Assembly (NCBI GenBank): GCA_047602755.1
Contig: JBLKOM010000006.1
Span: 77,561 to 141,560, forward strand
Reading direction: 5' to 3'
DNA: 64,000 bases
DNA from: Candidatus Woesearchaeota archaeon
GTDB taxonomy: Archaea; Nanobdellota; Nanobdellia; Woesearchaeales; JACJVV01
Shown piece by piece: positions 1 through 14,357 of this stretch (positions are counted from its first letter, which is position 1; each line of letters begins with the position of its first letter). The notes beneath the pieces are model-generated. The model did no database searches and had not been told where the DNA came from. It was given only the letters and a program-made list of their open reading frames with translations. Position numbers and translations under genes: made by a program.

Positions 1-699
1 AGGAAGTCATTGAACCAAATATATTCTCAGAAGGATTAGTTTCCAAATCAATTTTAATCTTACCATAATAATTTGAGATAATGCTAAGAATATTATTTGA
101 AGCATATGCAATATAATCTGAAGTAATTACATTGTTATCTATTTGATCAAAATAAAAATGAGGTACATCTTTTTTGTAATCATTTGAATAAAAAGAAGAA
201 TGTGGTATATTTATATCATCTGCAGTCCAAATCAAGCTATTATTATCAACATCGATAAATTCGTAACTTTTTTGTTTTTTACATGCAACAATTCCATTGT
301 CAAAAACATATGAAACAGCTCTATCTAGTGTTCCATGAAATCTTTCATTCTTATAAATTTCAGAATTATTTTCATGGGATATTATAGTATAATAATCATT
401 GTTTTTTGGTGATACAAAAACAAAACCATCTAAAGATTTTCTTGCTTTCTCAGAAAAATCATCTAAAGAAACAACAACATATTCTTTACAATAGTACCTC
501 GTTTGATTTGAACATACATTACTTTGAGAATATGAGAATGAGATTAACTGATTATTAACTATTATATGAGTATGTGTTTCTGATAGACTATGTTTAGCAG
601 TTCCATGCCTTAACAAATGCCTTCTTCTTGTAGGTTCTAATAAAACTGGAGAATTATTAAATTCACCTAAAACATCTTGAATTAAATCTTCAATATTCA
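1..699 (-). CDS. hypothetical protein, 5'-partial in window (continues upstream of position 1 on the minus strand)
   Basis: Open frame on the minus strand from ATG at 697-699 to the window edge (MNIEDLIQDVLGEFNNSPVLLEPTRRRHLL...). No recognisable motifs. Absent from the ORF track only because it has no stop within the window. Confidence 0.5.
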
Positions 700-813
700 T
701 ATATTAGAAGAATAAAAATGCAATTTTAAATTTTAGCATTTTATATGAATAAATAAGCATAAACTTTTATAAAAGATTCTGTTTTTTCTATATATCAAGA
801 ATATTATATTATT

Positions 814-909
814 GGTGACGTGGGACAATCTGGTACTCCGCTGGCCTTGAGTTTAAGGACAGAAAGCCAGTTTCCGCAAGGATTTCCCGGTTCAAATCCG
901 GGCGTCACC
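814..909 (+). tRNA. class II tRNA, probably tRNA-Ser (anticodon TGA at 848-850) with a putative 13-nt intron (852-864)
   Basis: 7-bp acceptor stem GGTGACG/CGTCACC. T-arm CCCGG-TTCAAAT-CCGGG. Anticodon stem CTGGC/GCCAG encloses 20 nt, consistent with a 6-nt loop half, a 13-nt intron at the 37/38 position and 1 nt. 15-nt variable arm, so Ser or Leu class. Discriminator G. No encoded CCA. Confidence 0.6.
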
Positions 910-1141
910 GTTTTAGTTTTACAATATTGATGTGTTTTCTAAGGGATTTGAACCTCCGGTTCATGCACTCACTAACGTTCGGCAGTTTGTTCATAAAAAA
1001 TCACAAACAATCCGGGCGTCACCGTTTTAGTTTTACAATATTGATGTGTTTTCTAAGGGATTTGAACCTCCGGTTCATGCACTCACTAACGTTCGGCAGT
1101 TTGTTCATAAAAAATCACAAACAATCCGGGCGTCACCGTTT
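896..1141. repeat. perfect tandem duplication of a 114-bp unit (910-1023 and 1024-1137). Each unit ends with an 18-bp copy of the tRNA 3' end (ATCCGGGCGTCACCGTTT), so the tRNA 3' end occurs three times
   Basis: Direct reading: the two units are identical. Each contains GGGATTTGAACC, the reverse complement of a tRNA T-arm. Resembles att-site duplication at a tRNA. Confidence 0.8.
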
Positions 1142-1193
1142 ATTTCTAAAAAAATTCAAAAAGTTTATATATTATCAAAATTAATTTTATTAT

Positions 1194-1442
1194 ATGGATT
1201 TTGACCTACAAAATTTTATGGATTGGTTTGATGAAAATAAAGAATGGATGTTAATACCTGTAGGAATTACTATAGGAGTAATATTAATTGGTTTTATAGT
1301 TATGCTTATTACGGGTAAAGAAGTTAGTACATTAGTGAAAACTATATTCATATTGCTTTTATTTGGATCACCTTTTATTGGATTTTATGTTGGAGAATAT
1401 GTTGATCCTTATATTGAGCTATTATTAGCTAAGTTGAAATGA
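1194..1442 (+). CDS. small hypothetical membrane protein (82 aa)
   Basis: ORF with two hydrophobic segments, directly upstream of the L35Ae gene on the same strand. Confidence 0.4.
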   Translation: MDFDLQNFMDWFDENKEWMLIPVGITIGVILIGFIVMLITGKEVSTLVKTIFILLLFGSPFIGFYVGEYVDPYIELLLAKLK

Positions 1443-2749: not shown

Positions 2750-3916
2750 TTATGCAGCTTTTTGCATGGTTAATTGATTTTCAAAATTTTCTATTTCTTG
2801 TTGTGTTTGAGATGAATATCTTTGTACTACAGCAAACATATTCTTTGCATTAATTAATTTATCTCTAATAGATTGCATGTAATAAATCAATGAATCAAAT
2901 AATTTAATAATATCAGTTGCACCTGATTTTACTTGTTGTTGGAATTTTTCTGAATTCTTCATTATTTTATTTATTGCTTTTACTGAGCTTGAAAATTGAG
3001 TCAGTAATGATGGTTTATCTTTTGAGTCTATTACGATTAATTCAAGATTAAGTATTGTCTGCCTTAGTTTAATATTTCTATCTCGTATTGTATGTAATAA
3101 TGCATCTAATTTTAATTTTAATTCAGGTGTTTCATTTAATCTAAATTGATCAAGACTTGCAGACTCAGACTCTAAATCCTTTTTAAGCTTACTAAGTTTT
3201 CTTAATTGATATATTAATGCTTTTTTAATTTGTGAGAATTTTAATTCTGGTGCTTTTAATAACTCTGGTAGTTCTTTCATTTTTGCTGCTAATGCATATT
3301 TTGCACGAGAATCATGAGCTTGTCTTAATGCTTCTTCAATCCCAGCTAAGATACTAACTACTTCTTCTATTTGTGATATATCTTGTTGAAGTTGTGAGTC
3401 TTGTTTGAATGTTGGATTATCAAGTAATGATTGTTCTGTTTTAAGAATTGAATCATGCTTAATTGGTTGATGTTCAATAGATTTCTTAGTTAAGGAGATA
3501 TTAATAGGAATATTCAGCTGCTTACTTCTTGATATCATAGCCTCACCACGGTGATTAAGATGATAAATATAAACTTCGAGATTTAATTTATCCGCTTTAT
3601 ACTTATCAGGAATATCCATTTCAACATGAAATGTTAAAGCATTTTTTCTATCAACATTAACTAAATAACCAGTAATTTGTTGATTCTTATTTGTTGGAAC
3701 TGCTTGTAATTTAATCTCTTGTTTTTTTTTTGCTATAATTCCTTTTGTAATATAAGCAAAATATTTAACATAATTTAATGGACTACCATCTGCTAAAGTT
3801 CGTAAGTATGCTACAAATTTATCTTGAGTTATTTGCTTGGGTTGTGAAGATGAATCTACTACAGCTATATTAGGTAACATATTGTCCGTTATTTTTATTT
3901 TAAATTTTGCTATCAT
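2750..3916 (-). CDS. hypothetical coiled-coil protein (388 aa)
   Basis: Long ORF. C-terminal two thirds are rich in heptad-like K/E/L/Q repeats. Confidence 0.55.
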   Translation of the reverse strand: MIAKFKIKITDNMLPNIAVVDSSSQPKQITQDKFVAYLRTLADGSPLNYVKYFAYITKGIIAKKKQEIKLQAVPTNKNQQITGYLVNVDRKNALTFHVEMDIPDKYKADKLNLEVYIYHLNHRGEAMISRSKQLNIPINISLTKKSIEHQPIKHDSILKTEQSLLDNPTFKQDSQLQQDISQIEEVVSILAGIEEALRQAHDSRAKYALAAKMKELPELLKAPELKFSQIKKALIYQLRKLSKLKKDLESESASLDQFRLNETPELKLKLDALLHTIRDRNIKLRQTILNLELIVIDSKDKPSLLTQFSSSVKAINKIMKNSEKFQQQVKSGATDIIKLFDSLIYYMQSIRDKLINAKNMFAVVQRYSSQTQQEIENFENQLTMQKAA

Positions 3917-4122
3917 TTTGTTATGCTCTTTCTTGCTCTCCTTCTACTTTAAAATCAGAGTTACTATCTGAGTCTTCAGATGTATTATTTCCATTTAATA
4001 TATTATTTAATTCAGTTTCATTTTTAATTTTAAATAAATTATTAACTCTTTCTATATCCGTAGCACTACTTACATTTCCTAAATATTTAGTTAACATTTG
4101 ATTAAAATTATCTTCTACCATA

Positions 4123-5754
4123 TTAATTATTTCTCCATAAAATAAAAGGATTGAAATTAAAATCAAGTACACCTTGATTTTTTAATTGAGTTTTAATAGT
4201 ATCAGTAGGATTATCAGCATGTTGAATAATTAAATTATTAATTGCATCTAATTCATTATTATCCATTTCTTTATCTAATACAGCTACAAATACTCTTAAA
4301 AAACACATCATAGGATTATCATGTTTATTAACATTAAATATAGGGCTAATTATAACTTTTGGATTACTATAAAAATTATGACAAAAATGATCATCATAAA
4401 CTAATTTTTGAATAGATTTATTTTCATATTTAAAACTAATACTTAAATTTGTTATCTTTAATCTATTATTAAGTTCATGTTTGGTTAATATTTTTGGATT
4501 ATCAAAACCTAATGTGTTGTAATAAGACACAAAAAATACATGATAATGTTTTTTGCCAATTCCTTTTTTAATATGAAAATTAGAATCTTCATTGGAAATA
4601 TTATTACTTATAACATTCATTATTTTTGGAACTGAACCAAAAGGATTATCTAAAGAAGAATTATGAACCTTAATAGTTGTACTCTCAATTAAAACAACTT
4701 TAGAATTATTATCACCTTCATTTATTTCTTTACTTAATATAATATTATTATGTGCTTCTTTAGAAAAATCTGCAATTTGAACAAAAGGAGAAAAGAATTC
4801 TAGTTTTGCTTTTTTATAACCACTATCTTTTAATACAAGTGATTCAATAGATTCAATTTTTGAACCTTCTGGAATATCTTTAAATTCAAAATAACCATCT
4901 TTATCAGCAATAGTAAAAGTAGTTACATCTGGAAGAGTTTTTTGTTGCATATGTTTTTCAGAATTACTTATTTTAAGTTTAATTATATGACCATTTAATC
5001 CAATAGATAAAGGAGTTCTACTACCATCATTACCTGCATAAACATCTTTTGCCCAGTCTAATGCATGTGTATTATCATATTGAATTGGATTTGGACAATC
5101 TGTAATAGTTTCTTTAGTAACAAGTCTACCTTTAATTGTAAATTTTTCTTTACTTTTTCCACCTACATCCCATCTAGTCCATTTCCATCTTAAATCTTCA
5201 TCGTGGATAACTCCAAGTTTATCAAAGAATTTATCAACATCTAATATTTTTTTAAAGGAACCTCTAAATATGTCTTTTAATCTAGGACTTTTTTTTGCTG
5301 CCTTATAAATTTCATTAATCTGATGCTGTTTTGCTCTTGCGGCTCCTAAACCAATTACAGGATATTGTTGAAGTATAGATTCTGGAATTTCTTGAAATTC
5401 ATCTTCAAATGGATGATTAAGTAAAGTTATACCTTGCATACCAAGGAAGTGACCATGAACAAATCCTCCAAATTTAACATTTCCTTCAATTTCACCAGGC
5501 TGTTTTGTTTGCTGTTCTCTTGATGTTACTTGATCAACATTTCCTATTTCTCTAGGATACTTACCACTATTATTTAGCTTTCTAAAAGCCTCATCAGCAT
5601 CACTAGCTTCAAATCCCCACCAAGTATAAAAGAAAATCTCATTTTTTTGCTTTTCTAATTTCTCAACAGGATCTTGCTCATTAGGATTTTCAACTACTTC
5701 ATCAATAACATCTTCAATTATTTCATTCAAGTTGTTAAAATTGTTGTCTGGCAT
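4123..5754 (-). CDS. hypothetical protein (543 aa) with a possible CarboxypepD_reg-like beta-sandwich segment
   Basis: Long ORF. The segment ...GHIIKLKISN...TIADKDGYFEFKDIPEGSKIE resembles carboxypeptidase-regulatory-like domains. No signal peptide. Confidence 0.55.
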   Translation of the reverse strand: MPDNNFNNLNEIIEDVIDEVVENPNEQDPVEKLEKQKNEIFFYTWWGFEASDADEAFRKLNNSGKYPREIGNVDQVTSREQQTKQPGEIEGNVKFGGFVHGHFLGMQGITLLNHPFEDEFQEIPESILQQYPVIGLGAARAKQHQINEIYKAAKKSPRLKDIFRGSFKKILDVDKFFDKLGVIHDEDLRWKWTRWDVGGKSKEKFTIKGRLVTKETITDCPNPIQYDNTHALDWAKDVYAGNDGSRTPLSIGLNGHIIKLKISNSEKHMQQKTLPDVTTFTIADKDGYFEFKDIPEGSKIESIESLVLKDSGYKKAKLEFFSPFVQIADFSKEAHNNIILSKEINEGDNNSKVVLIESTTIKVHNSSLDNPFGSVPKIMNVISNNISNEDSNFHIKKGIGKKHYHVFFVSYYNTLGFDNPKILTKHELNNRLKITNLSISFKYENKSIQKLVYDDHFCHNFYSNPKVIISPIFNVNKHDNPMMCFLRVFVAVLDKEMDNNELDAINNLIIQHADNPTDTIKTQLKNQGVLDFNFNPFILWRNN

Positions 5755-5757
5755 TTT

Positions 5758-8391
5758 TTATAAATTCTCAATTCTATTTTTTACTAAGCTATATAATACT
5801 TTGAAAAACTCAATGGTATCATCCATGTTATCTTTATTTCTAAAACTCTTTTTTATCTCTAATTGCATTGAGTCTACACCAGTTTCTTTATTGATAAATT
5901 TAGTTACTGTTTCATCAGTATTAGCTCCAAAACGATCATTCAAAACAACAGAATATTTTCCATTGTTGCTTAATATAGGAATAAGAGTATCTTCAACTAA
6001 AGTTTTATCTTTTGTATCATTTTTTGCTGTTCCAATATATATATCATGATCATGATTATTATTACACCCATGTAAATCTATTACCAATATTGACCTATTC
6101 ATAGTAACATAATTAATTAAACTTTGTTTGTATGATAAAATTTGACGATTAGAATCATCAACTTCCCCCAAAATATTTTTATCTTTAGAAGATGAATTAG
6201 AAGATTCATAATTAAAATAATTAGCATCTCTAGACTTAGCACTAGTATAAATAATTGGGCAATCTAATAATTCATTTAATAATAAAGCAAATGCACCAGT
6301 CATCTCATCTGAATTATGTTCTATTATTTCTCCATTTTTTTTATCAGTTCTCCTTATACTCCTAACATTATGCGGGGCTGATAAAATAACTTTTGATTTT
6401 CTTCCTGTAATTAATTTAAAAGATTTTGATGTAATTTCTATTTGATTATTATTTTTAGTAGATGAATTAAAATAATCTAGTAATTTATTTTTTAATTCAT
6501 TATCTGATGGCAATTTATTAGTAATTTTTTTAGATGCCATCGTAGTAGTAGTATTTTTAGTGGTTGTATTAGAAGGCTTTTTAGTAGAAGTGATTTTAGA
6601 TAAAGGAATTTTTCCTGTATTGAAATAAATAACTAAATCATATAATGCTTTAAATAAATTAAAAAGTTTTTTTCGAGCTGATTTATTTCTATAAGAATTG
6701 CTTAATTGTAACTCTATAGGTATAAAATCAGGATTTTTTAATCTATTACTATAATAAATAATATCAATTACTGGATTTTTTGAAATTTCTTTATTAGTAG
6801 GTTCAAGTTTAATATTATAATAATTAAAAATATCAATTATATCTTTTTGAATTTTTTTAGATAAATTGTTTGCCCTAAGAAATATTTTATCTTCAGAACT
6901 AATTATACCAATTATATTTATTAAATATTTTTTATCTTCAATAATTTCTAATAATTTAGCTTTATATGGTAGCATTCCATTATTTATGTTATCTTCAATA
7001 GTAAAAGCACTAATATCATCAAAATTAGTTGTTACAGAATTACAATCAAATGATTCTGGATCTCTTGATTTTAAATCTGAATATATTATCGGGCAGTCAG
7101 CATATGCCTGTAAAAGAATAGCAAATGCACCAGTAAATAAATCAGGATTACGTTCTTTTGTTTTTTTACCATCAAAATATAAATAAGATGAATAGTGAGG
7201 TGCTGATATAACTACTGAACTTGTACCATCATAATTTTTAAAAGAAGCATCAGGAAAAGATAGTTTATCAAAATCTTTAGATTTCCAATCATTAATTAGC
7301 CTATTAACAATAGCATTCTCATTTTTATCAAAATCATGAGTCACTTTTTCGGATGATGAAGAAGAAGGTAAATTATTAAATCCTTGTAAAATTAATATAC
7401 CTAGTTCTTTAAAAGTATCATAATTATTATTAGAAGAATTTAAAATACTTTTTATTTTATCTTTATATTCATCTTGAACTTTCTCTATTTTCTCATTAAG
7501 TGAATCTTTTTGTCTAAAAGTTTCAAACCCAATACGATAACTGAAAATATCATGATGTGTTTTTTTATCATCTATTTTAGAAGTATCTTTTGCTAAAAAT
7601 GGCATAACCCATGAAATACTTTTTGTTTTATAATTAATATTTAGACCTAACTGATTTAATTTATTAATACAACTATCTCTTATAACAGTTGCTATTTCTG
7701 AAGCTTTTTCTAAATCTTTTTCATTTAATTTGCTTAAATTTACAGCACATGTTTTTACATGTGTATTTTGTACTGCCTTTCGATAATAGCTTTCATCCTC
7801 ACCTAAATCTTGATATGCAAGATATTTTCTTATTATTTCAAGAATCTTTTTATTTGTCTCATTCCCTTCATTACTCGGCCTATTATTTGAACTAGATTCT
7901 TCTTCTTTTACTTGTTGTTGTTCCTGGTGGATGTCAGGGGCTTTATATCCAATATCAGAGATAAATTTATTTAAAATATTGTCAAATAAAGTATGTAAAT
8001 GATTCTTAAATCTACCACTTCTTACAATTTCCCATAATTCTTTTTTAGATTCATTTTTTGGTTTCTTATTATTTGGATTATATTGACTTTTGAAAAAATC
8101 TTTAATACCTAGATGAATATGTTTTTTAAAATAATTTTCAGTTTTTTCTAGAATATCATTGATTTCTCTATCATCAAAAATAAAATTATTATTATGATAT
8201 AAATAATAATGCGCTGTTTGAAATGATGGATTGTTCTTTTGAGTATTTAGATTTGATTTGAATTGTTCTCTTAACTCAGAGAAAGAATATTCATTATTAG
8301 CTTTAAGTTTTCTAATTAAATAAATCATATACCAACGTTTTATAGTTCTAGTTGCTACATTTCCTGCATCTCTTTTTTTAGTAAAAAACAT
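5758..8391 (-). CDS. large hypothetical protein (877 aa) with two tandem copies of a putative Zn-amidohydrolase-like domain
   Basis: Internal duplication: ...SAPHYSSYLYFDG...FTGAFAILLQAYADCPIIYSDLKSRD... and ...SAPHNVRS...EMTGAFALLLNELLDCPIIYTSAKSRD...IDLHG.... The SAPH/E/IDLHG pattern is reminiscent of the poly-gamma-glutamate hydrolase, N-formylglutamate amidohydrolase and carboxypeptidase-like fold (tentative). Stop is 3 nt before the next gene's start. Confidence 0.6.
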   Translation of the reverse strand: MFFTKKRDAGNVATRTIKRWYMIYLIRKLKANNEYSFSELREQFKSNLNTQKNNPSFQTAHYYLYHNNNFIFDDREINDILEKTENYFKKHIHLGIKDFFKSQYNPNNKKPKNESKKELWEIVRSGRFKNHLHTLFDNILNKFISDIGYKAPDIHQEQQQVKEEESSSNNRPSNEGNETNKKILEIIRKYLAYQDLGEDESYYRKAVQNTHVKTCAVNLSKLNEKDLEKASEIATVIRDSCINKLNQLGLNINYKTKSISWVMPFLAKDTSKIDDKKTHHDIFSYRIGFETFRQKDSLNEKIEKVQDEYKDKIKSILNSSNNNYDTFKELGILILQGFNNLPSSSSSEKVTHDFDKNENAIVNRLINDWKSKDFDKLSFPDASFKNYDGTSSVVISAPHYSSYLYFDGKKTKERNPDLFTGAFAILLQAYADCPIIYSDLKSRDPESFDCNSVTTNFDDISAFTIEDNINNGMLPYKAKLLEIIEDKKYLINIIGIISSEDKIFLRANNLSKKIQKDIIDIFNYYNIKLEPTNKEISKNPVIDIIYYSNRLKNPDFIPIELQLSNSYRNKSARKKLFNLFKALYDLVIYFNTGKIPLSKITSTKKPSNTTTKNTTTTMASKKITNKLPSDNELKNKLLDYFNSSTKNNNQIEITSKSFKLITGRKSKVILSAPHNVRSIRRTDKKNGEIIEHNSDEMTGAFALLLNELLDCPIIYTSAKSRDANYFNYESSNSSSKDKNILGEVDDSNRQILSYKQSLINYVTMNRSILVIDLHGCNNNHDHDIYIGTAKNDTKDKTLVEDTLIPILSNNGKYSVVLNDRFGANTDETVTKFINKETGVDSMQLEIKKSFRNKDNMDDTIEFFKVLYSLVKNRIENL

Positions 8392-8416
8392 ATTTTCTCC
8401 TCATTTTTTAAATAGC

Positions 8417-10012
8417 CTAAATACTTCGTTTTCTTGTATGTGAACTTATTTCTCCTTTTGTTTTTATTTTTTTATTACCATTACCTAAATCTTCGAATTT
8501 AACATGATGTATTGAAGGCTCAAAACCCCATGCATCTTCTGATTTAAAATTAAGTTGAATAGATTTCATTCCTTTATATCCTGAAGGAAGCCTGAATTGC
8601 ATATGTGCTTCAAACTTTAATTTTTTATTTGTAAATAAATCTTTTATGAAACCAACTTTATTTCGACTTTTGTATTTTTCATCTTTGCTTAAATCATAAG
8701 TTACATCAATAAATACATTTTTATTTACTGGGAGTATATAATAATCATCAGATGGAACTACTCCATTAGTGTCAGTTGGCTGATCTGGGTATTTATAACC
8801 AGCAGATGTTACAGAAACCATAGCACCTTGAACATTCTCATTATCTTCATTTTTTACATGAACTTTCAATAAAGCAACTTCTGAGTTTTCTTCTAAAACT
8901 CTATCAGATGTATCATCAAAATCATCATCATCTGTACCATCTTTTTTGCCTTTCTTTTTAGTACTTTTCTTTTTTGTTTTATCATCATAATCATCTAATG
9001 ATTTATCTCCTTTAGATACAACAATTCCTTTAATTGTTTTATTTTTCTTTATTTTAAATGGTGGTTTTTTACCTCTATGGTCATTATGTCCATTATATGA
9101 ATTCCAATAAGGGTCATTATTAGCAATTACAACATCAACAACAACTTCTTTATCTTCAACATCTTTTATTACTATTGCAAAATTACCCACTCCATTTGAA
9201 CGAGCTCTTGCTAGAGTATTACCAGAAGAATCTAATGCTTCAACAATAGTTGAGACTGGTTCATTATCATCATTAAGTACTTTACCAATTAATGTAACTT
9301 TTCCTTTAGCACCTTTACCATCTGATCCACCGCCTGAGCCTCCACCTGAACCACTACCTGAACCATCACCTGAATCACTACCTGAACCATCACCTGAATC
9401 CCCACCTTTTTTTCTAAACATCCACATTGCTAACCAAACAAAAGTTATAAGCCAGCCCAATGCAAAAAGTGGGGAACCTCTTCTACCCATTAACCATCCA
9501 TAAAAAATCATAGTTAAAGCAGCTCCTATTAATGCTTTTTTCCATCTATCATCTTCAGGATCAGCATCTTTTAAGCCGAAGTAGGTCATTGCAAATATTA
9601 ATAATGATAATAATATCCCACCAAGTATTGCATATGGTCCAAGTATACTATCAAGTGCTTCACTAACACTCACTGCTCCACCATTTAAGAATATTAAACC
9701 AAAAATACCTAATGATGATAGGATTGCTAAACATAAAGAAACAATTTTTCCATATTTATTTGTTGGGGAGCCACTAAAAACTGGAATTTTACCCATTAAT
9801 GGAACAAAAATATTATAGAACATTATTGTGAATATAATGACTGTTATTCCAAAAACAGCATAATCATTAGTTAATAATTGTTCTAAAAATACTCCACCAG
9901 TATTAAAAACATTCAAGAATTCTTGCATACCTGGATTTGCTAAGACTGGCTTTGAAAATAGTGTTAAAATTAGTGTGTAAAATACATTTTTCATCCATCT
10001 AGCAGTTCTCAT
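8417..10012 (-). CDS. multi-pass membrane protein (531 aa) with a Gly/Ser/Asp-rich linker and a C-terminal globular (probably extracytoplasmic) domain
   Basis: N-terminal hydrophobic helices, then GGDSGDGSGSDSGDGSGSGSGGGSGGGSDG encoded by a nucleotide tandem repeat at about 9345-9410. N-terminal membrane module is paralogous to the adjacent 179-aa ORF. Confidence 0.6.
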   Translation of the reverse strand: MRTARWMKNVFYTLILTLFSKPVLANPGMQEFLNVFNTGGVFLEQLLTNDYAVFGITVIIFTIMFYNIFVPLMGKIPVFSGSPTNKYGKIVSLCLAILSSLGIFGLIFLNGGAVSVSEALDSILGPYAILGGILLSLLIFAMTYFGLKDADPEDDRWKKALIGAALTMIFYGWLMGRRGSPLFALGWLITFVWLAMWMFRKKGGDSGDGSGSDSGDGSGSGSGGGSGGGSDGKGAKGKVTLIGKVLNDDNEPVSTIVEALDSSGNTLARARSNGVGNFAIVIKDVEDKEVVVDVVIANNDPYWNSYNGHNDHRGKKPPFKIKKNKTIKGIVVSKGDKSLDDYDDKTKKKSTKKKGKKDGTDDDDFDDTSDRVLEENSEVALLKVHVKNEDNENVQGAMVSVTSAGYKYPDQPTDTNGVVPSDDYYILPVNKNVFIDVTYDLSKDEKYKSRNKVGFIKDLFTNKKLKFEAHMQFRLPSGYKGMKSIQLNFKSEDAWGFEPSIHHVKFEDLGNGNKKIKTKGEISSHTRKRSI

Positions 10013-10017
10013 CTTAC

Positions 10018-10557
10018 TTATTTATTGCTTTCACTAGCTTCAGTCAATAATCCAGCACTACTAATATATAAAATTAACCCAATAATACCTATAAGCCAAC
10101 CAATTGCTTGCACATTTGGACTTGAAACAAAATATCCAGAAATTGCCATTGAAAAACCAATACCAATTACTGCTATATGCCAACGACCTTCTTCTTTATT
10201 TCCCATACCAAAATAGATTATTGCAAAAAAGAAAATAGATAAAACAACCCCTGCATAAACTCCAAATGGAGTTAGCACATTTGTCACAACTTCACGAATA
10301 TTATCTGTTTGACCAACTCTAAAGATTCCAAATGTAGAAACTAATGAAATAGTTAATGCAGTAGCTTTTCCATAACGATTTGCTTTACTATCATTGCCTA
10401 AACCTGGAACTTTTCCAATAATTGCAAGAATTATAGCATAAAACAAGACAGTCATTACAACAAAAGATGCAATATACATAGAATGATCATCCTGAAAGAA
10501 ATTAATAATAAATCTTCCAGTATTCTCAAATGCATTTACATAGTTCTGTACGTCCAT
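10018..10557 (-). CDS. membrane protein (179 aa), paralog of the N-terminal module of the upstream gene
   Basis: Shared motif: VPGLGNDSKANRYGKATALTISLVSTFGIF here versus VFSGSPTNKYGKIVSLCLAILSSLGIFGL in the 531-aa neighbour. Confidence 0.55.
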   Translation of the reverse strand: MDVQNYVNAFENTGRFIINFFQDDHSMYIASFVVMTVLFYAIILAIIGKVPGLGNDSKANRYGKATALTISLVSTFGIFRVGQTDNIREVVTNVLTPFGVYAGVVLSIFFFAIIYFGMGNKEEGRWHIAVIGIGFSMAISGYFVSSPNVQAIGWLIGIIGLILYISSAGLLTEASESNK

Positions 10558-10692
10558 TAAAGTTTTATAAGTATTATAGTTTAAAACATTTTTGCAGTTA
10601 CAGTAAATGGCATATTAATTTGTAAAAACTAATCTTATTTACTATTTAGATTAAGACATAATTTACAAAAGATTAATATACAATTTATTAAA

Positions 10693-11283
10693 TCAACCAA
10701 ATAATGATTTTCTTTGTCTTGCAATATTTCCCATCATATTTGGAAGCATAGATTTTACAAGTAAATTGTAAATTTTATCTCGTTTTGATCTTATATATGA
10801 ATGAGCATCAGAAACATCTTTTGCATGTTTTCTATCATAAGTTTCAAGCCAACCTTCTACAGTTTTAATATTTAGCCTATTAGCAACATATTTTCTAACT
10901 CTTTCTGAATTAGCAAAATCTCGCAAAAACTGAATTAATTTAACTTCATTTAAGTCTGTAATTGATCTTTTACCCATAATAACTGCATCAAAATCAGCAT
11001 CACCAGTTATTACTTCATGCTTAAGTTTACTAGCAATAAAACCCATTCTATGAGACAATGCTTGTGTTAAATGAGGAATTGCACCTTTACAATAATTATC
11101 TGTAGGATTATCAACAACTGCTTCTAAATATTTACGATTACCTGATGGAATTTGATTCCAAATAGAAGGCTCTGATCTTAATTCTTTTATTATTTCAACT
11201 ATTTCATCATTAGAGCACTTATATAACATATCGATATGCTGCTCAACTTTTTCTAAAAGTAATTCAATTTTGTTTTTATCCAT
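10693..11283 (-). CDS. hypothetical protein (196 aa)
   Basis: ORF only. Confidence 0.5.
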   Translation of the reverse strand: MDKNKIELLLEKVEQHIDMLYKCSNDEIVEIIKELRSEPSIWNQIPSGNRKYLEAVVDNPTDNYCKGAIPHLTQALSHRMGFIASKLKHEVITGDADFDAVIMGKRSITDLNEVKLIQFLRDFANSERVRKYVANRLNIKTVEGWLETYDRKHAKDVSDAHSYIRSKRDKIYNLLVKSMLPNMMGNIARQRKSLFG

Positions 11284-11518
11284 TTTATCACCTATTTAAT
11301 AAATAATGTAATACCATTTTTTTGATAATAAAACTTAATAAATATTTATATTTTTAAAATATTATAATTTCAAGGAATAATAATCTAAAAGAATTAGGAA
11401 TTACAAGTTATTTTTCCTTAGTTTATGAAATTAAAAATGTATATTAGAGACATTAATGATTATCACTAATTTTTTAGAATGAATAAATAAAATAAAAAAA
11501 TATAAAATATTTACTTAA

Positions 11519-11794
<276 letters not shown>

Positions 11795-12052
11795 TATAAT
11801 ATCCACCTCTTATTTTATTATAAATTAGGTTATAACACTATTTTGAACTTTATAGTATATAAAGCTTTTTATTTTTTTAATATAATTTATTATTTTTTTA
11901 TAAAAAATAAAATAAATATTTAAAACTAAAAAAATATTCTTTTTTATAAATTTTATTTTATCGACTATAAAATTTAGAATTATTTAAGAAGTAGATAAAA
12001 TCAAATTAATTTTATCAAAAAAATAAAAAAAATAATTTTTTAACTAAAAAAA

Positions 12053-13972
12053 TTAATAATTTACAAGAACTTCAACATCCTTACCAAAAATATTTTTAAG
12101 ATCTTCAAAAACTCGTTGCTTTAGAAAAACTTTATTTGGAATTTCTATTTTTACAAGATGCTTTTCTAAGTCTTCAATTGTTGCTGAAATTATATTTTTT
12201 AAAGAACCATCTTCGTCTATATCTGCTTTTGAAACACCTTGATTTTGATTATCTAAATCATGAATAATGAATGCAACTTTGTCTAACATAATCACTTCAC
12301 CATATTTATCTCCATGTTTCACCCTTATTTTTGCACGTTCTAGTTCTCTTCCTTTTTTACGTTGGATATATTCAATTACAAATCTAATAATATCTCTGGA
12401 ATCTTTTTTGCATTTTTCAACATCGGTTTTAGATAATTTTTTTGCATCAAAATCTTTTTTAGCTTTGATTACATCTTCAAGCATTCTTTTATATTTCTCA
12501 GGAATTTTTCCGTGCGTTATTAAGTAATCTTCAAAATACTTTAGAATGTCATCATTTTTTACACCTTTAACTCCTTCAAGACTAAGTGCATCTCTTACTA
12601 ATGTAACAATTGTTTCATATATATGCAGAACATCTTCTTCTTCTTTACGTTTTTCAATATCAGTAAATAATGTTTTTATTTTTTTTAAATAATCATCAGC
12701 ATCCTTTAACATTTTATCAATTTCTGCACCTTTAAGTTCTTTTTTAGTTCCATGCTCTAAATCTTTTCTTATTCTTATAACATGCTCAAGTATTTCAATA
12801 GATTTTGCATCAAACATTTTTTCTTTTTTTACAAAGATTTCTTTCATTAAAGTAGCTGTTTCTCTTGGTGCAGGAGGTGCAATACCATACATCATTAATG
12901 CTGCTTGTGATGGAGTAAGTAAAGCATAATATATATCTTCCATCCCTATTTCTTTTATTTTAAACTCAACACGTTTAATCATTTGTTCACCAGATGACAT
13001 AAACATATCAATTGCTTCAGCAGATGGTTTTATTTTACCCATTTTTAGTAATTGTTTCCATGGCATAAAAATACCTCTATCAAAGAAAGGAACACCATCT
13101 CTTAATAATGTGAAAATTACAGGATTTGCTTCTTTTAATGAATCCCAGAAATCTGTTAAGATATATACTTGTATATTTATTTTATTTTGAATTCCAGTCA
13201 TCTGACCAGCTTCATAACCCATTCCAATAATTATAGCTCTTAATTTATCTTTTAATTCTGCACGAGTCATTTTTTTAACATCAGTATCATCAATTACAAT
13301 CCATACATCAATATCTGAAGTTTTTGTTGCTTGCCCTCGTACAATAGAACCTGCAAGAACATAACTAACAATATATTTTTCAAACTTTTTAACAACCATA
13401 CTCTTATGAATTTCTGATATTTTTATCGCTGCAAGCATACCATTATCATATATTGGCGCACTCATTGCAATTTCTTGAAGATAATCATATTTTGCATCAT
13501 AGCAAGATTGCCATAATTCACTTAAAATAATTGTTTGTGGTTTAAGATTCTTATCAATTTCTTGAGCCATTTGAGCAATAATTATGCTTAATTTATCTTT
13601 AAGCTCTTGCTTAGTCATTTTTTGACTATCATTATCATCAATAAGAACTAAAACGTTAATATCGTCAGGATTAGACTTTTCTTTTTTAATATTTTCCATC
13701 CCTTCTGGAAGTTCAGCCATGTCTTTTTTCATTGATTCATGTTGTTGTTTTACAGGAGGAAGTAAAGCAATACCAACGACGTACTTGTCAAATTTTTCAA
13801 TTACATTTTTAGTAAAAGTATCTAATTTTTCTTTTATTTTCTTTAACTTTTCTTGAGCTTCTTTTGGTAATTTTGAAATATCTTGATTTCCTATTTGTGT
13901 TTGTGCATCATTAGGATTAGCAGTAGAAATATTTTTTACATTTTTAGATTTTGCAGACTTTGATTTTACCAT
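12053..13972 (-). CDS. protein with two tandem Pol-beta-like nucleotidyltransferase-fold domains (639 aa)
   Basis: Second domain has the canonical GS-x9-DxD signature: VLAGSIVRGQATKTSDIDVWIVIDD. A degenerate first copy is present (...DDINVLVLIDDND...). Both are followed by the near-identical KKMT(K/R)(Q/A)ELKDKL. C-terminal alpha-helical region. Confidence 0.6.
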   Translation of the reverse strand: MVKSKSAKSKNVKNISTANPNDAQTQIGNQDISKLPKEAQEKLKKIKEKLDTFTKNVIEKFDKYVVGIALLPPVKQQHESMKKDMAELPEGMENIKKEKSNPDDINVLVLIDDNDSQKMTKQELKDKLSIIIAQMAQEIDKNLKPQTIILSELWQSCYDAKYDYLQEIAMSAPIYDNGMLAAIKISEIHKSMVVKKFEKYIVSYVLAGSIVRGQATKTSDIDVWIVIDDTDVKKMTRAELKDKLRAIIIGMGYEAGQMTGIQNKINIQVYILTDFWDSLKEANPVIFTLLRDGVPFFDRGIFMPWKQLLKMGKIKPSAEAIDMFMSSGEQMIKRVEFKIKEIGMEDIYYALLTPSQAALMMYGIAPPAPRETATLMKEIFVKKEKMFDAKSIEILEHVIRIRKDLEHGTKKELKGAEIDKMLKDADDYLKKIKTLFTDIEKRKEEEDVLHIYETIVTLVRDALSLEGVKGVKNDDILKYFEDYLITHGKIPEKYKRMLEDVIKAKKDFDAKKLSKTDVEKCKKDSRDIIRFVIEYIQRKKGRELERAKIRVKHGDKYGEVIMLDKVAFIIHDLDNQNQGVSKADIDEDGSLKNIISATIEDLEKHLVKIEIPNKVFLKQRVFEDLKNIFGKDVEVLVNY

Positions 13973-14357
13973 TTTTACGAAACCTCGTTTTTATTTTTAT
14001 CAAATAAACATACACTATATATATTATTATTTAATTAAAATTATTGTAAATTTTAACAATTAAACAATTAATAATCATTTTAAGTAAATCAAGACATGTT
14101 ATTATATATAAATACTTCCCTTGGATTTAATACTTAGTAGGGACATTTCTGACATATTAATAATTAATATGTTAGATGCTTTTTGATGAACATAATTTGA
14201 TTTCACTACACAATCAGCATAAACTTTAAAAACATAGGATTTCTAATTGTAATTATATTACTATTTTATAATCAAAACAGTATTTTAATAAAAAGTAATA
14301 AAACAAAAAATAATATAAAATAAAAATTATATAATAAAAAATCTAAGGTGATGTTCA

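What the first reader, a model, noticed from the sequence alone, without database searches (positions are those of the whole stretch)
896..1141. tRNA 3' end triplicated by a perfect 114-bp tandem duplication directly downstream of an intron-containing tRNA
ATCCGGGCGTCACCGTTT (tRNA T-stem 3' half plus acceptor 3' strand) occurs at 896, 1010 and 1124. The two intervening 114-bp units are 100% identical. Each carries GGGATTTGAACC, an inverted tRNA T-arm-like fragment. Direct repeats of a tRNA 3' end are the hallmark of integrase-mediated integration and excision (attL/attR). Perfect identity implies a very recent event. This may be the scar or a tandem remnant of an integrative element, or a hotspot where the true attR lies outside the window. 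The 85-aa ORF 927-1184 is an artefact of this repeat.
Basis: seen in the sequence. Interest (0 to 1): 0.6.

Follow-up and report, generated by a model that had tools for sequence, protein, structure and literature searches.

The report
Doubled insertion scar beside a tRNA-Ser gene
A small piece of foreign-looking DNA sits right after a serine tRNA gene in an uncultured Woesearchaeota archaeon, bounded by copies of the tRNA's last 19 bases and then doubled, which is most likely the gene-less leftover of an old mobile-element insertion and is fairly ordinary.

Summary
A 114-bp unit is repeated 2.2 times at 895-1141 with 100% identity. The 19-mer AATCCGGGCGTCACCGTTT occurs three times. Copy 1 is the 3' end of an intact, intron-containing tRNA-Ser(UGA) at 814-910.

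A syntenic Woesearchaeota relative has the same tRNA followed directly by the promoter and gene that here follow copy 3. So this lineage gained a 228-bp insertion of two units, each 95 bp of spacer plus the 19-mer. The spacer is 36% GC against 8-14% for neighbouring intergenic DNA. It has no homologue, no RNA-structure signal and no terminal inverted repeats.

This geometry matches attL/attR around an integration into a tRNA 3' end, with later doubling by unequal exchange between the 19-bp repeats. However, there is no element. No recombinase was found in 53 ORFs across the 64-kb window, and no attP-like donor turned up in the viral, metagenome, genome, phage or plasmid collections searched.

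An independent k=31 contig starts exactly 30 nt before the exit junction. That shows the unit-to-unit junction exists in reads. Copy number and the perfect identity could still be products of assembly.

The 85-aa ORF has no homologue and looks like an artefact. Verdict: a decayed integration scar or illegitimate insertion, then duplicated. Low interest.

The parts
814..910 (+). tRNA-Ser(UGA) gene, intact. Acceptor stem GGTGACG/CGTCACC, discriminator G, long variable arm, no encoded CCA.
   Evidence: Rfam RF00005, 43.2 bits, E 6.9e-08. Aligned to orthologues in L023, L024 and L004. ARAGORN calls the intron-less L004 orthologue tRNA-Ser(tga).
852..864 (+). 13-nt tRNA intron at canonical position 37/38. 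The exact borders are ambiguous by 1-2 nt because of the run of A.
   Evidence: Alignment of four orthologues: the insert is 13 nt here, 21 nt in L023, 33 nt in L024 and absent in L004. Rfam shows a 16-nt versus 3-nt insertion in the anticodon loop.
895..913 (+). Direct repeat copy 1 (19 bp, AATCCGGGCGTCACCGTTT). It covers T-loop A58 to the tRNA 3' end plus TTT, and is attL-like.
914..1008 (+). Spacer 1 (95 bp, 36% GC). No homologue, no gene, no RNA-structure signal.
   Evidence: GC 0.36 versus 0.14 and 0.08 for flanking intergenic DNA. Fold z-scores +0.43 and -0.28. No Rfam match at E<=10 apart from the tRNA. No database matches.
944..954 (-). Inverted T-loop-like 11-mer (GGTTCAAATCC on the - strand), part of the small palindrome TGAACC-TCC-GGTTCA at 949-963. 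A second copy is at 1058-1068.
   Evidence: Inverted repeats I2-I4. 2 of 500 shuffles reach this score. The longer 19-mer around it matches only T-arms of phage tRNA-Met genes, so it is a generic T-arm likeness.
1009..1027 (+). Direct repeat copy 2, flanked on both sides by spacer. This is what an attP or internal att junction would look like.
1028..1122 (+). Spacer 2, identical to spacer 1.
1123..1141 (+). Direct repeat copy 3, attR-like. It is followed by native downstream DNA.
   Evidence: Its downstream sequence aligns with what follows the tRNA in L023. Logan contig L001 starts at window position 1112, 30 nt before the exit junction.
1142..1193 (+). Native intergenic region holding the TATA-like box TTTATATA (1164-1171) of the downstream gene. 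It is conserved in L023.
   Evidence: Alignment; sequence.
1194..1442 (+). 82-aa membrane-protein gene, the conserved neighbour of this tRNA (84 aa in L023).
927..1184 (+). 85-aa ORF created by the in-frame 114-bp (38-codon) repeat. Judged not to be a gene.
   Evidence: No protein in the 5.8-billion-sequence collection shares even three 5-residue words with it. Only a marginal PHROG match at E 0.043.

Best explanation
This is a gene-less scar of DNA insertion at the 3' end of tRNA-Ser(UGA), later doubled.

Step 1 (inferred): a mobile element carrying a 19-bp match to the tRNA 3' end recombined site-specifically with the tRNA. The match runs from mid T-loop to 3 nt past the discriminator. This left the tRNA intact (attL, 895-913) and displaced the original 3' end to the far side (attR, now 1123-1141, still joined to the native promoter of the next gene).

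Step 2 (inferred): the element was lost by internal deletion, leaving 95 bp of foreign DNA between the two 19-bp repeats.

Step 3 (inferred): unequal crossing-over or replication slippage between the 19-bp repeats doubled the 114-bp unit. This gives repeat-spacer-repeat-spacer-repeat.

Shown: the repeat structure, the intact tRNA, the insertion relative to a syntenic relative, the odd composition of the spacer, and the existence of the unit-to-unit junction in an independent read-derived assembly graph.

The array probably has no function. The tRNA is followed by TTTT-AG-TTTT, a likely archaeal terminator, and the downstream gene keeps its own TATA box.
For: - Exact 114-bp x 2.2 repeat and three copies of the 19-mer against 0 expected.
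- Copy 1 completes a bona fide tRNA.
- The relative L023 (Woesearchaeota GCA_020637495.1) shares the 309-aa / L35Ae / 84-aa gene order. There the tRNA-Ser is followed after about 68 bp by the 84-aa gene. That stretch aligns with what follows copy 3 here, including TTCAAAAxxTTTATATA. L023 and L024 each have a single copy of their own tRNA 3' end.
- Spacer GC is 0.36, against 0.14 and 0.08 for native intergenic DNA on either side.
- Logan contig L001 from SRR28154542 begins exactly 30 nt (k-1) before the point where 'exit' and 'next unit' diverge. Logan contigs hold each 31-mer only once by construction (PMC12424806). A 19-bp repeat alone would not break a k=31 graph, so the unit-to-unit junction must be present in those reads.
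- Precedents from the literature: att repeats of median 17 bp, 57% in tRNA genes, and arrays formed by re-use of a site in Thaumarchaeota (PMC6563490). [quoted passage not shown] A T-loop-to-3'-end core for phage Ms6 (PMC1762012).
Against: - No integrase, serine recombinase or Cas1 family in 53 ORFs of the window. One search listed only the best 25 of its 55 matching families, so this is not exhaustive for the 18 ORFs not re-scanned.
- No attP-like donor or any other copy of the spacer in any collection searched.
- 95 bp is far too small to identify as an element remnant, and no feature of it is diagnostic.
- The only empty-site comparison is with a distant relative (46% identity in the neighbouring protein), so the history cannot be dated or polarised finely.
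- Precise excision would leave no scar, so an extra deletion event has to be assumed.
- Copy number and perfect identity may be set by the assembler.
Confidence: 0.45

Rival explanations
1. Insertion without any site-specific recombinase. A foreign or ectopic DNA fragment was joined in by homology-facilitated illegitimate recombination or repair. One candidate fragment is another strain's tRNA-Ser 3' end plus its 95-bp downstream flank. One crossover fell in the tRNA and one illegitimate join fell at A58. That created the 19-bp duplication, and unequal exchange then doubled the unit.
For: It explains the same geometry and the absence of any integrase, attP donor or element. The spacer has no terminal inverted repeats or other mobile-element hallmark.
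Against: A clean 19-bp duplication starting in mid T-loop and running just past the tRNA end is the typical footprint of tRNA/tmRNA-targeting integrases (PMC3146451; PMC6563490). No donor locus with 'tRNA-Ser 3' end + this spacer' was found in 185,579 species genomes or in the JGI metagenomes.
Confidence: 0.27
2. The array is partly an assembly product. The organism has the spacer and a repeat, but the number of units (and hence the 'triplication' and the perfect identity) is not what exists in any one cell. The true state may be one unit, many units, or a mixed population.
For: The unit (114 bp) is shorter than typical reads, and short-read graphs collapse it into a cycle. Identical copies are produced by construction. 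The Logan k=31 contig breaks exactly at the repeat border. No contig spanning the array was found in any other dataset.
Against: The k=31 break requires a 30-mer with two successors, so the unit-to-unit junction, and therefore at least two units in some genomes, is real in SRR28154542. This rival concerns copy number only and is compatible with either origin above.
Confidence: 0.15
3. The 19-bp repeats are target-site duplications made by a transposase or casposase-type (Cas1-like) integrase. The 95-bp segment would be a miniature or 'solo-end' remnant, and the same site would have been used twice, as in tandem casposons that share a TSD at tRNA-Leu.
For: [quoted passage not shown] The repeat-spacer-repeat layout fits that pattern.
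Against: The spacer ends carry no terminal inverted repeats. No Cas1 or PolB family was listed among the window ORFs. By my recollection, not checked here, casposon TSDs are 14-15 bp, not 19. Two independent insertions of an identical 95-bp fragment are less likely than one duplication. No other copies of the spacer exist in the window.
Confidence: 0.05
4. The units are functional RNA genes: extra tRNA 3' pieces for split or trans-spliced tRNAs, a tRNA-linked small RNA, or a second tRNA on the minus strand.
For: The spacer is more GC-rich than its surroundings and contains a T-arm-like 11-mer. The minus strand can be read as a 75-nt stretch with a weak acceptor-like pairing (5/7) and a weak T-arm (my reading).
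Against: Nothing but the one tRNA appears in the Rfam scan at E<=10 on both strands. Fold energies are no better than shuffles (z +0.43, -0.28). No anticodon arm can be drawn. The unit is absent from relatives. The tRNA is already complete and is followed by a T-run.
Confidence: 0.03

Closest known systems
Tandem att arrays at tRNA/tmRNA genes, e.g. [quoted passage not shown]
   Same: Direct repeat of about 20 bp equal to the 3' end of the RNA gene. [quoted passage not shown] Several repeats occur in tandem downstream of an intact gene. The last repeat is followed by conserved chromosome.
   Different: In Dehalococcoides the segments between repeats are kilobases long and most carry a serine-recombinase integration module. 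Here they are two identical 95-bp pieces with no gene, and no recombinase is seen within 64 kb.
Archaeal integrated elements in tRNA genes (tyrosine recombinase attL/attR), as catalogued for Thaumarchaeota (PMC6563490)
   Same: The target is a tRNA 3' end. The repeat length of 19 bp is close to the thaumarchaeal median of 17 bp. Arrays formed by re-use of the same site are described.
   Different: No element, no integrase and no attP partner were found. The host is a DPANN (Woesearchaeota) archaeon.
Tandem casposons sharing a target-site duplication, and solo-TIR remnants, in Methanosarcina (PMC4779613)
   Same: Repeat-insert-repeat-insert-repeat layout at a tRNA gene, and tiny remnants left after loss of the element.
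   Different: No terminal inverted repeats and no Cas1/PolB here. The repeat is 19 bp.
Ordinary tandem duplication by unequal crossing-over or slippage between short direct repeats
   Same: Head-to-tail identical units whose borders coincide with a short direct repeat. This step is assumed in every scenario here.
   Different: It does not explain where the first 95-bp spacer and the second 19-mer came from.

Membership tests
att-site duplication by a tRNA-targeting site-specific integrase (attL/attR scar, tandem att array) | Direct repeat identical to the 3' part of a tRNA gene, with one copy completing an intact tRNA | tested here: met
   19-mer present three times; copy 1 lies inside tRNA-Ser 814-910.
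att-site duplication by a tRNA-targeting site-specific integrase (attL/attR scar, tandem att array) | The bounded DNA is absent from the orthologous (empty) site in relatives, and the distal repeat abuts native flank | tested here: met
   In L023 the tRNA is followed directly by the promoter and 84-aa gene. That sequence aligns with the sequence after copy 3. The relative is distant (46% identity in the neighbouring protein).
att-site duplication by a tRNA-targeting site-specific integrase (attL/attR scar, tandem att array) | Integrase or recombinase gene inside or next to the bounded segment | tested here: not met
   The segments are 95 bp. No recombinase family was listed among 53 ORFs of the 64-kb window. 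The region upstream of position 1 could not be read.
att-site duplication by a tRNA-targeting site-specific integrase (attL/attR scar, tandem att array) | Matching attP on a free or integrated element elsewhere | tested here: not met
   The 19-mer, the 16-mer and the spacer pieces gave only chance hits in bacterial or phage DNA, plus one orthologous tRNA. Phage and plasmid BLAST found nothing. The rest of the source genome was not available.
att-site duplication by a tRNA-targeting site-specific integrase (attL/attR scar, tandem att array) | Bounded DNA compositionally distinct from the host flank | tested here: met
   36% GC versus 8-14% for flanking intergenic DNA and 27% for the window.
Casposon / transposon insertion with target-site duplication | Terminal inverted repeats at the ends of the inserted segment | tested here: not met
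   The inverted-repeat scan of 780-1200 shows none at the spacer ends.
Casposon / transposon insertion with target-site duplication | Cas1-type or other transposase nearby, or multiple dispersed copies of the segment | tested here: not met
   No such family was listed. There is no other spacer copy in the window or the fetched loci.
Second tRNA, split-tRNA piece or other structured RNA in the spacer | Match to an RNA family, or folding better than shuffled sequence | tested here: not met
   The Rfam scan at E<=10 finds only the tRNA-Ser. Fold z-scores are +0.43 and -0.28.
CRISPR array | Several repeats separated by different spacers, with cas genes nearby | tested here: not met
   Three repeats with two identical 95-bp spacers. 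No cas family was listed.
Simple tandem duplication | Head-to-tail units of equal length and near identity, with the junction present in reads | tested here: met
   TRF reports 100% identity. The junction is inferred from the k=31 contig break at exactly k-1 nt. The true copy number cannot be tested here.

The most novel reading that the evidence does not exclude
The 114-bp unit (19-bp att core plus 95 bp) is a minimal, gene-less, cis-mobilizable unit that is still a substrate for a recombinase or casposase-type integrase encoded elsewhere in the genome or by a virus. On this reading the array grows and shrinks by site-specific events at the tRNA-Ser end. That would make it a repeat-spacer array seeded at a tRNA in a DPANN archaeon.
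Probability: 0.04. Interest if true: 0.55.

Novelty: new member of a known kind. Interest (0 to 1): 0.17.

Why it matters
If the integration reading is right, tRNA-Ser(UGA) would be marked as an attachment site for mobile elements in Woesearchaeota, a group whose viruses and integrative elements are poorly known. The 19-mer and the spacer would then be handles for finding the donor element in other datasets. Otherwise the value is practical. The locus is a small repeat that breaks short-read assemblies, creates a false 85-aa ORF, and sits next to an intron-containing tRNA that standard tRNA finders miss.

Tried and rejected
1. A second tRNA, a split-tRNA piece or a small RNA in the spacer. Rejected: the Rfam scan at E<=10 on both strands finds only the tRNA-Ser, folding is no better than shuffles, and I could draw no anticodon arm by hand.
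2. C/D-box sRNA fused to the tRNA. Read by eye, the box spacing does not fit.
3. Donor element or attP. Searches were run for the 19-mer in viral, genome and metagenome collections; the 16-mer in viral contigs; and three spacer pieces in viral contigs. They gave only chance hits in bacterial or phage DNA, phage tRNA-Met T-arms, and one orthologous Woesearchaeota tRNA-Ser (L004). L015 looked like an orphan 3' fragment (a 22-nt match) but lies upstream of mraZ in a bacterial contig, so it is a chance match.
4. Phage and plasmid BLAST in distant mode found nothing relevant.
5. Reaching the DNA upstream of window position 1. The upstream ORF has no homologue. The source contig is an NCBI Woesearchaeota MAG (locus tag ACMXYG_05970, 148 kb) and could not be fetched.
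6. Copy-number variants via predicted proteins spanning the array. No protein shares words with the 85-aa ORF.
7. Peptides from three reading frames of the unit (two on the + strand, one on the - strand) against PHROGs gave nothing meaningful.
8. Terminal inverted repeats at the spacer ends: none.
9. A hot-spot argument from L024/L026. In a sister lineage a Fic gene lies between the tRNA-Ser and the 91-aa gene, and contigs from different samples diverge there. No repeat of that tRNA's 3' end was found, so it was left as unresolved.

Full report
OBSERVATION. The repeat is exactly as described. Tandem Repeats Finder gives 895-1141, period 114, 2.2 copies, 100% matches and no indels. The 18-mer occurs at 896, 1010 and 1124 and nowhere else in 64 kb even with three mismatches, against 0 expected. 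The shared block is 19 bp, AATCCGGGCGTCACCGTTT (895-913, 1009-1027, 1123-1141). The two 95-bp spacers (914-1008, 1028-1122) are identical.

Copy 1 is the 3' end of a real tRNA gene at 814-910 (RF00005, 43.2 bits). ARAGORN and the whole-window Rfam scan at gathering threshold both missed it. The gene has a long variable arm and anticodon UGA, so it is tRNA-Ser. Alignment with three orthologues shows an insert at position 37/38. It is 13 nt here, 21 nt in L023, 33 nt in L024 and absent in L004. The 'intron-containing' description is therefore correct. The 19-mer starts at A58 in the T-loop and runs through the T-stem 3' half, the acceptor 3' strand and the discriminator, plus TTT.

SOURCE AND INDEPENDENT SUPPORT. 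The neighbouring 309-aa protein is 100% identical to a protein of an NCBI 'Candidatus Woesearchaeota archaeon' MAG (locus tag ACMXYG_05970, 148-kb contig). That contig could not be fetched.

A Logan contig from run SRR28154542 (L001) carries the downstream genes. It begins with AAATCACAAACAATCCGGGCGTCACCGTTT|ATTTC, which is exactly 30 nt of repeat before the exit junction. Logan assemblies are 31-mer graphs in which every 31-mer occurs once by construction (PMC12424806). A 19-bp repeat alone cannot create a branch at k=31. A contig starting at exactly k-1 nt therefore means that this 30-mer has two successors in the reads: A for the exit and T for the next unit.

So the unit-to-unit junction is real in those reads, and at least two units exist in some genomes. 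I do not know whether this run is independent of the MAG's own data. Neither the copy number nor the 100% identity is independent evidence, because a graph cycle traversed twice yields identical copies by construction.

WHAT THE LOCUS LOOKED LIKE BEFORE. Homologues of the 309-aa protein (43-46% identity) led to syntenic loci. In L023 (Woesearchaeota GCA_020637495.1) the gene order 309-aa / L35Ae / 84-aa membrane protein is conserved. The orthologous intron-containing tRNA-Ser lies about 68 bp upstream of the 84-aa gene, with no insert. The sequence after copy 3 in the window aligns with the sequence after the tRNA in L023, including TTCAAAA..TTTATATA and the start of the gene. L023 and L024 each contain one copy of their own tRNA 3' end.

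The window therefore carries a lineage-specific 228-bp insertion made of two units, each 95 bp plus the 19-mer. It lies between an intact tRNA and the native promoter of the next gene. Because copy 3 abuts native DNA, a 'true attR outside the window' is not needed.

THE SPACER. The spacer is 36% GC, whereas the intergenic DNA on either side is 14% and 8% and the window averages 27%. It does not look like native intergenic sequence. The checks on it gave:
- No RNA-family match at E<=10.
- No folding signal (z +0.43 and -0.28).
- No terminal inverted repeats.
- No copy elsewhere in the window or in the loci fetched up to that point (L001-L027).
- No match in phage or plasmid records or in IMG/VR.

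Its only notable feature is an 11-nt inverted copy of the T-loop region (GGATTTGAACC, 944-954), reached by 2 of 500 shuffles. It sits in a small palindrome, TGAACC-TCC-GGTTCA. The 19-mer around it matches T-arms of phage tRNA-Met genes. That shows T-arm likeness but no specific ancestry, and no anticodon arm can be drawn.

The 85-aa ORF exists because 114 bp is 38 codons and one frame is open. No protein in the 5.8-billion-sequence collection shares words with it, so I agree that it is an artefact.

SEARCH FOR AN ELEMENT. Fifty-three ORFs of the window were scanned against Pfam. The families listed are housekeeping: His biosynthesis, P-type ATPases, Lhr helicase, PGM and TrmB, among others. 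No integrase, serine recombinase, transposase or Cas1 appears. One search displayed only 25 of its 55 matching families. The 35 less-annotated ORFs were re-scanned with 25 of 30 families shown, down to E = 0.0056. The large unknown proteins at 2.7-14 kb are syntenic in L023, so they are not an island.

The 19-mer in 185,579 species genomes hit only two bacterial chance matches and the orthologous tRNA-Ser of another Woesearchaeota genome (L004). In JGI metagenomes all 16 hits are chance matches in bacterial DNA. In IMG/VR the 19-mer has no hit, and the 17 hits to the 16-mer are all chance matches in unrelated phage sequence, mostly GC-rich. No donor was found.

MECHANISM. The structure needs two things: a first event that put 95 bp of foreign DNA and a second 19-mer after the tRNA, and a doubling. 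A tandem duplication alone cannot give the terminal 0.2 copy unless the 19-mer already flanked the 95 bp.

The first event has the classic footprint of site-specific integration into a tRNA or tmRNA 3' end. The literature gives close precedents:
- Repeats of about 17-20 bp beginning in the T-loop.
- An intact gene at attL and native flank at attR.
- Arrays formed by re-use of the site.
- Gene-poor cis-mobilizable units (PMC6563490; PMC3146451; PMC1762012).

I therefore favour a decayed integration scar followed by unequal exchange between the 19-bp repeats (0.45). All three steps are inferred. An integrase-free route by homology-facilitated illegitimate recombination or repair explains the same geometry and the absence of any recombinase (0.27). 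A casposon or transposon TSD reading has a precedent in tandem casposons sharing a TSD at tRNA-Leu with solo-TIR remnants (PMC4779613), but it fails on the absence of TIRs and of a Cas1 or transposase family (0.05). A functional RNA reading fails the tests above (0.03). Misestimated copy number is a live caveat (0.15) but does not bear on origin.

VERDICT. This is a new instance of a well-known kind of scar in a poorly studied archaeal group. Interest is low.

Noticed in passing
window 814-910: This is the only tRNA gene detected in the 64-kb window. ARAGORN and the whole-window Rfam scan at gathering threshold both miss it because of its 13-nt intron and long variable arm; it appears only in a short-region scan. 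The L023 orthologue was likewise missed at gathering threshold. tRNA counts in DPANN MAGs may be underestimated.
   Followed up: partly
window 2-700 (- strand): An ORF of at least 233 aa directly upstream of the tRNA runs off the window start. It has no homologue in the 5.8-billion-protein collection and no Pfam or PHROG family. In relatives this position is occupied by other genes: GH17 in L023 and peptidase M48 in L024.
   Followed up: partly
window 11519-11806 (- strand): A 95-aa ORF made almost entirely of KKKAAKKKPAKKK-type repeats. It could be a very basic, histone-H1-like or low-complexity protein.
   Followed up: no
window 2750-13990 (- strand): A run of large proteins (388, 543, 877, 531, 179, 196 and 645 aa) without strong Pfam matches. 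A similar run of unannotated large genes lies in the same place in L023, so it is probably a lineage-specific conserved cluster. The 531-aa protein has a GSGSD-rich low-complexity linker.
   Followed up: no
L024 11642-13400, L026 2749 onward: In a sister lineage about 1.75 kb, including a Fic-domain gene, lies between tRNA-Ser and the 91-aa gene. Contigs from different samples that are 99.5% identical diverge 216 bp upstream of that gene; L026 continues into Rpp14 and a proteasome alpha subunit. No repeat of that tRNA's 3' end was found. This may be a variable region next to the same tRNA, or a chimeric contig.
   Followed up: partly
L004 7228-7349: The intron-less orthologous tRNA-Ser(UGA) of Woesearchaeota RIFCSPHIGHO2_02_FULL_39_9 has the identical 19-mer. 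Its contig ends 35 bp after the tRNA. An assembly break right after this tRNA could hint at variable DNA there, but it may be coincidence.
   Followed up: no
L024 17806-17959 (- strand): A tRNA match spanning 154 nt (RF00005, 36.4 bits), which implies a large intron. Together with the 13-, 21- and 33-nt introns in the tRNA-Ser orthologues, it suggests that intron length at one site changes quickly in this group.
   Followed up: no
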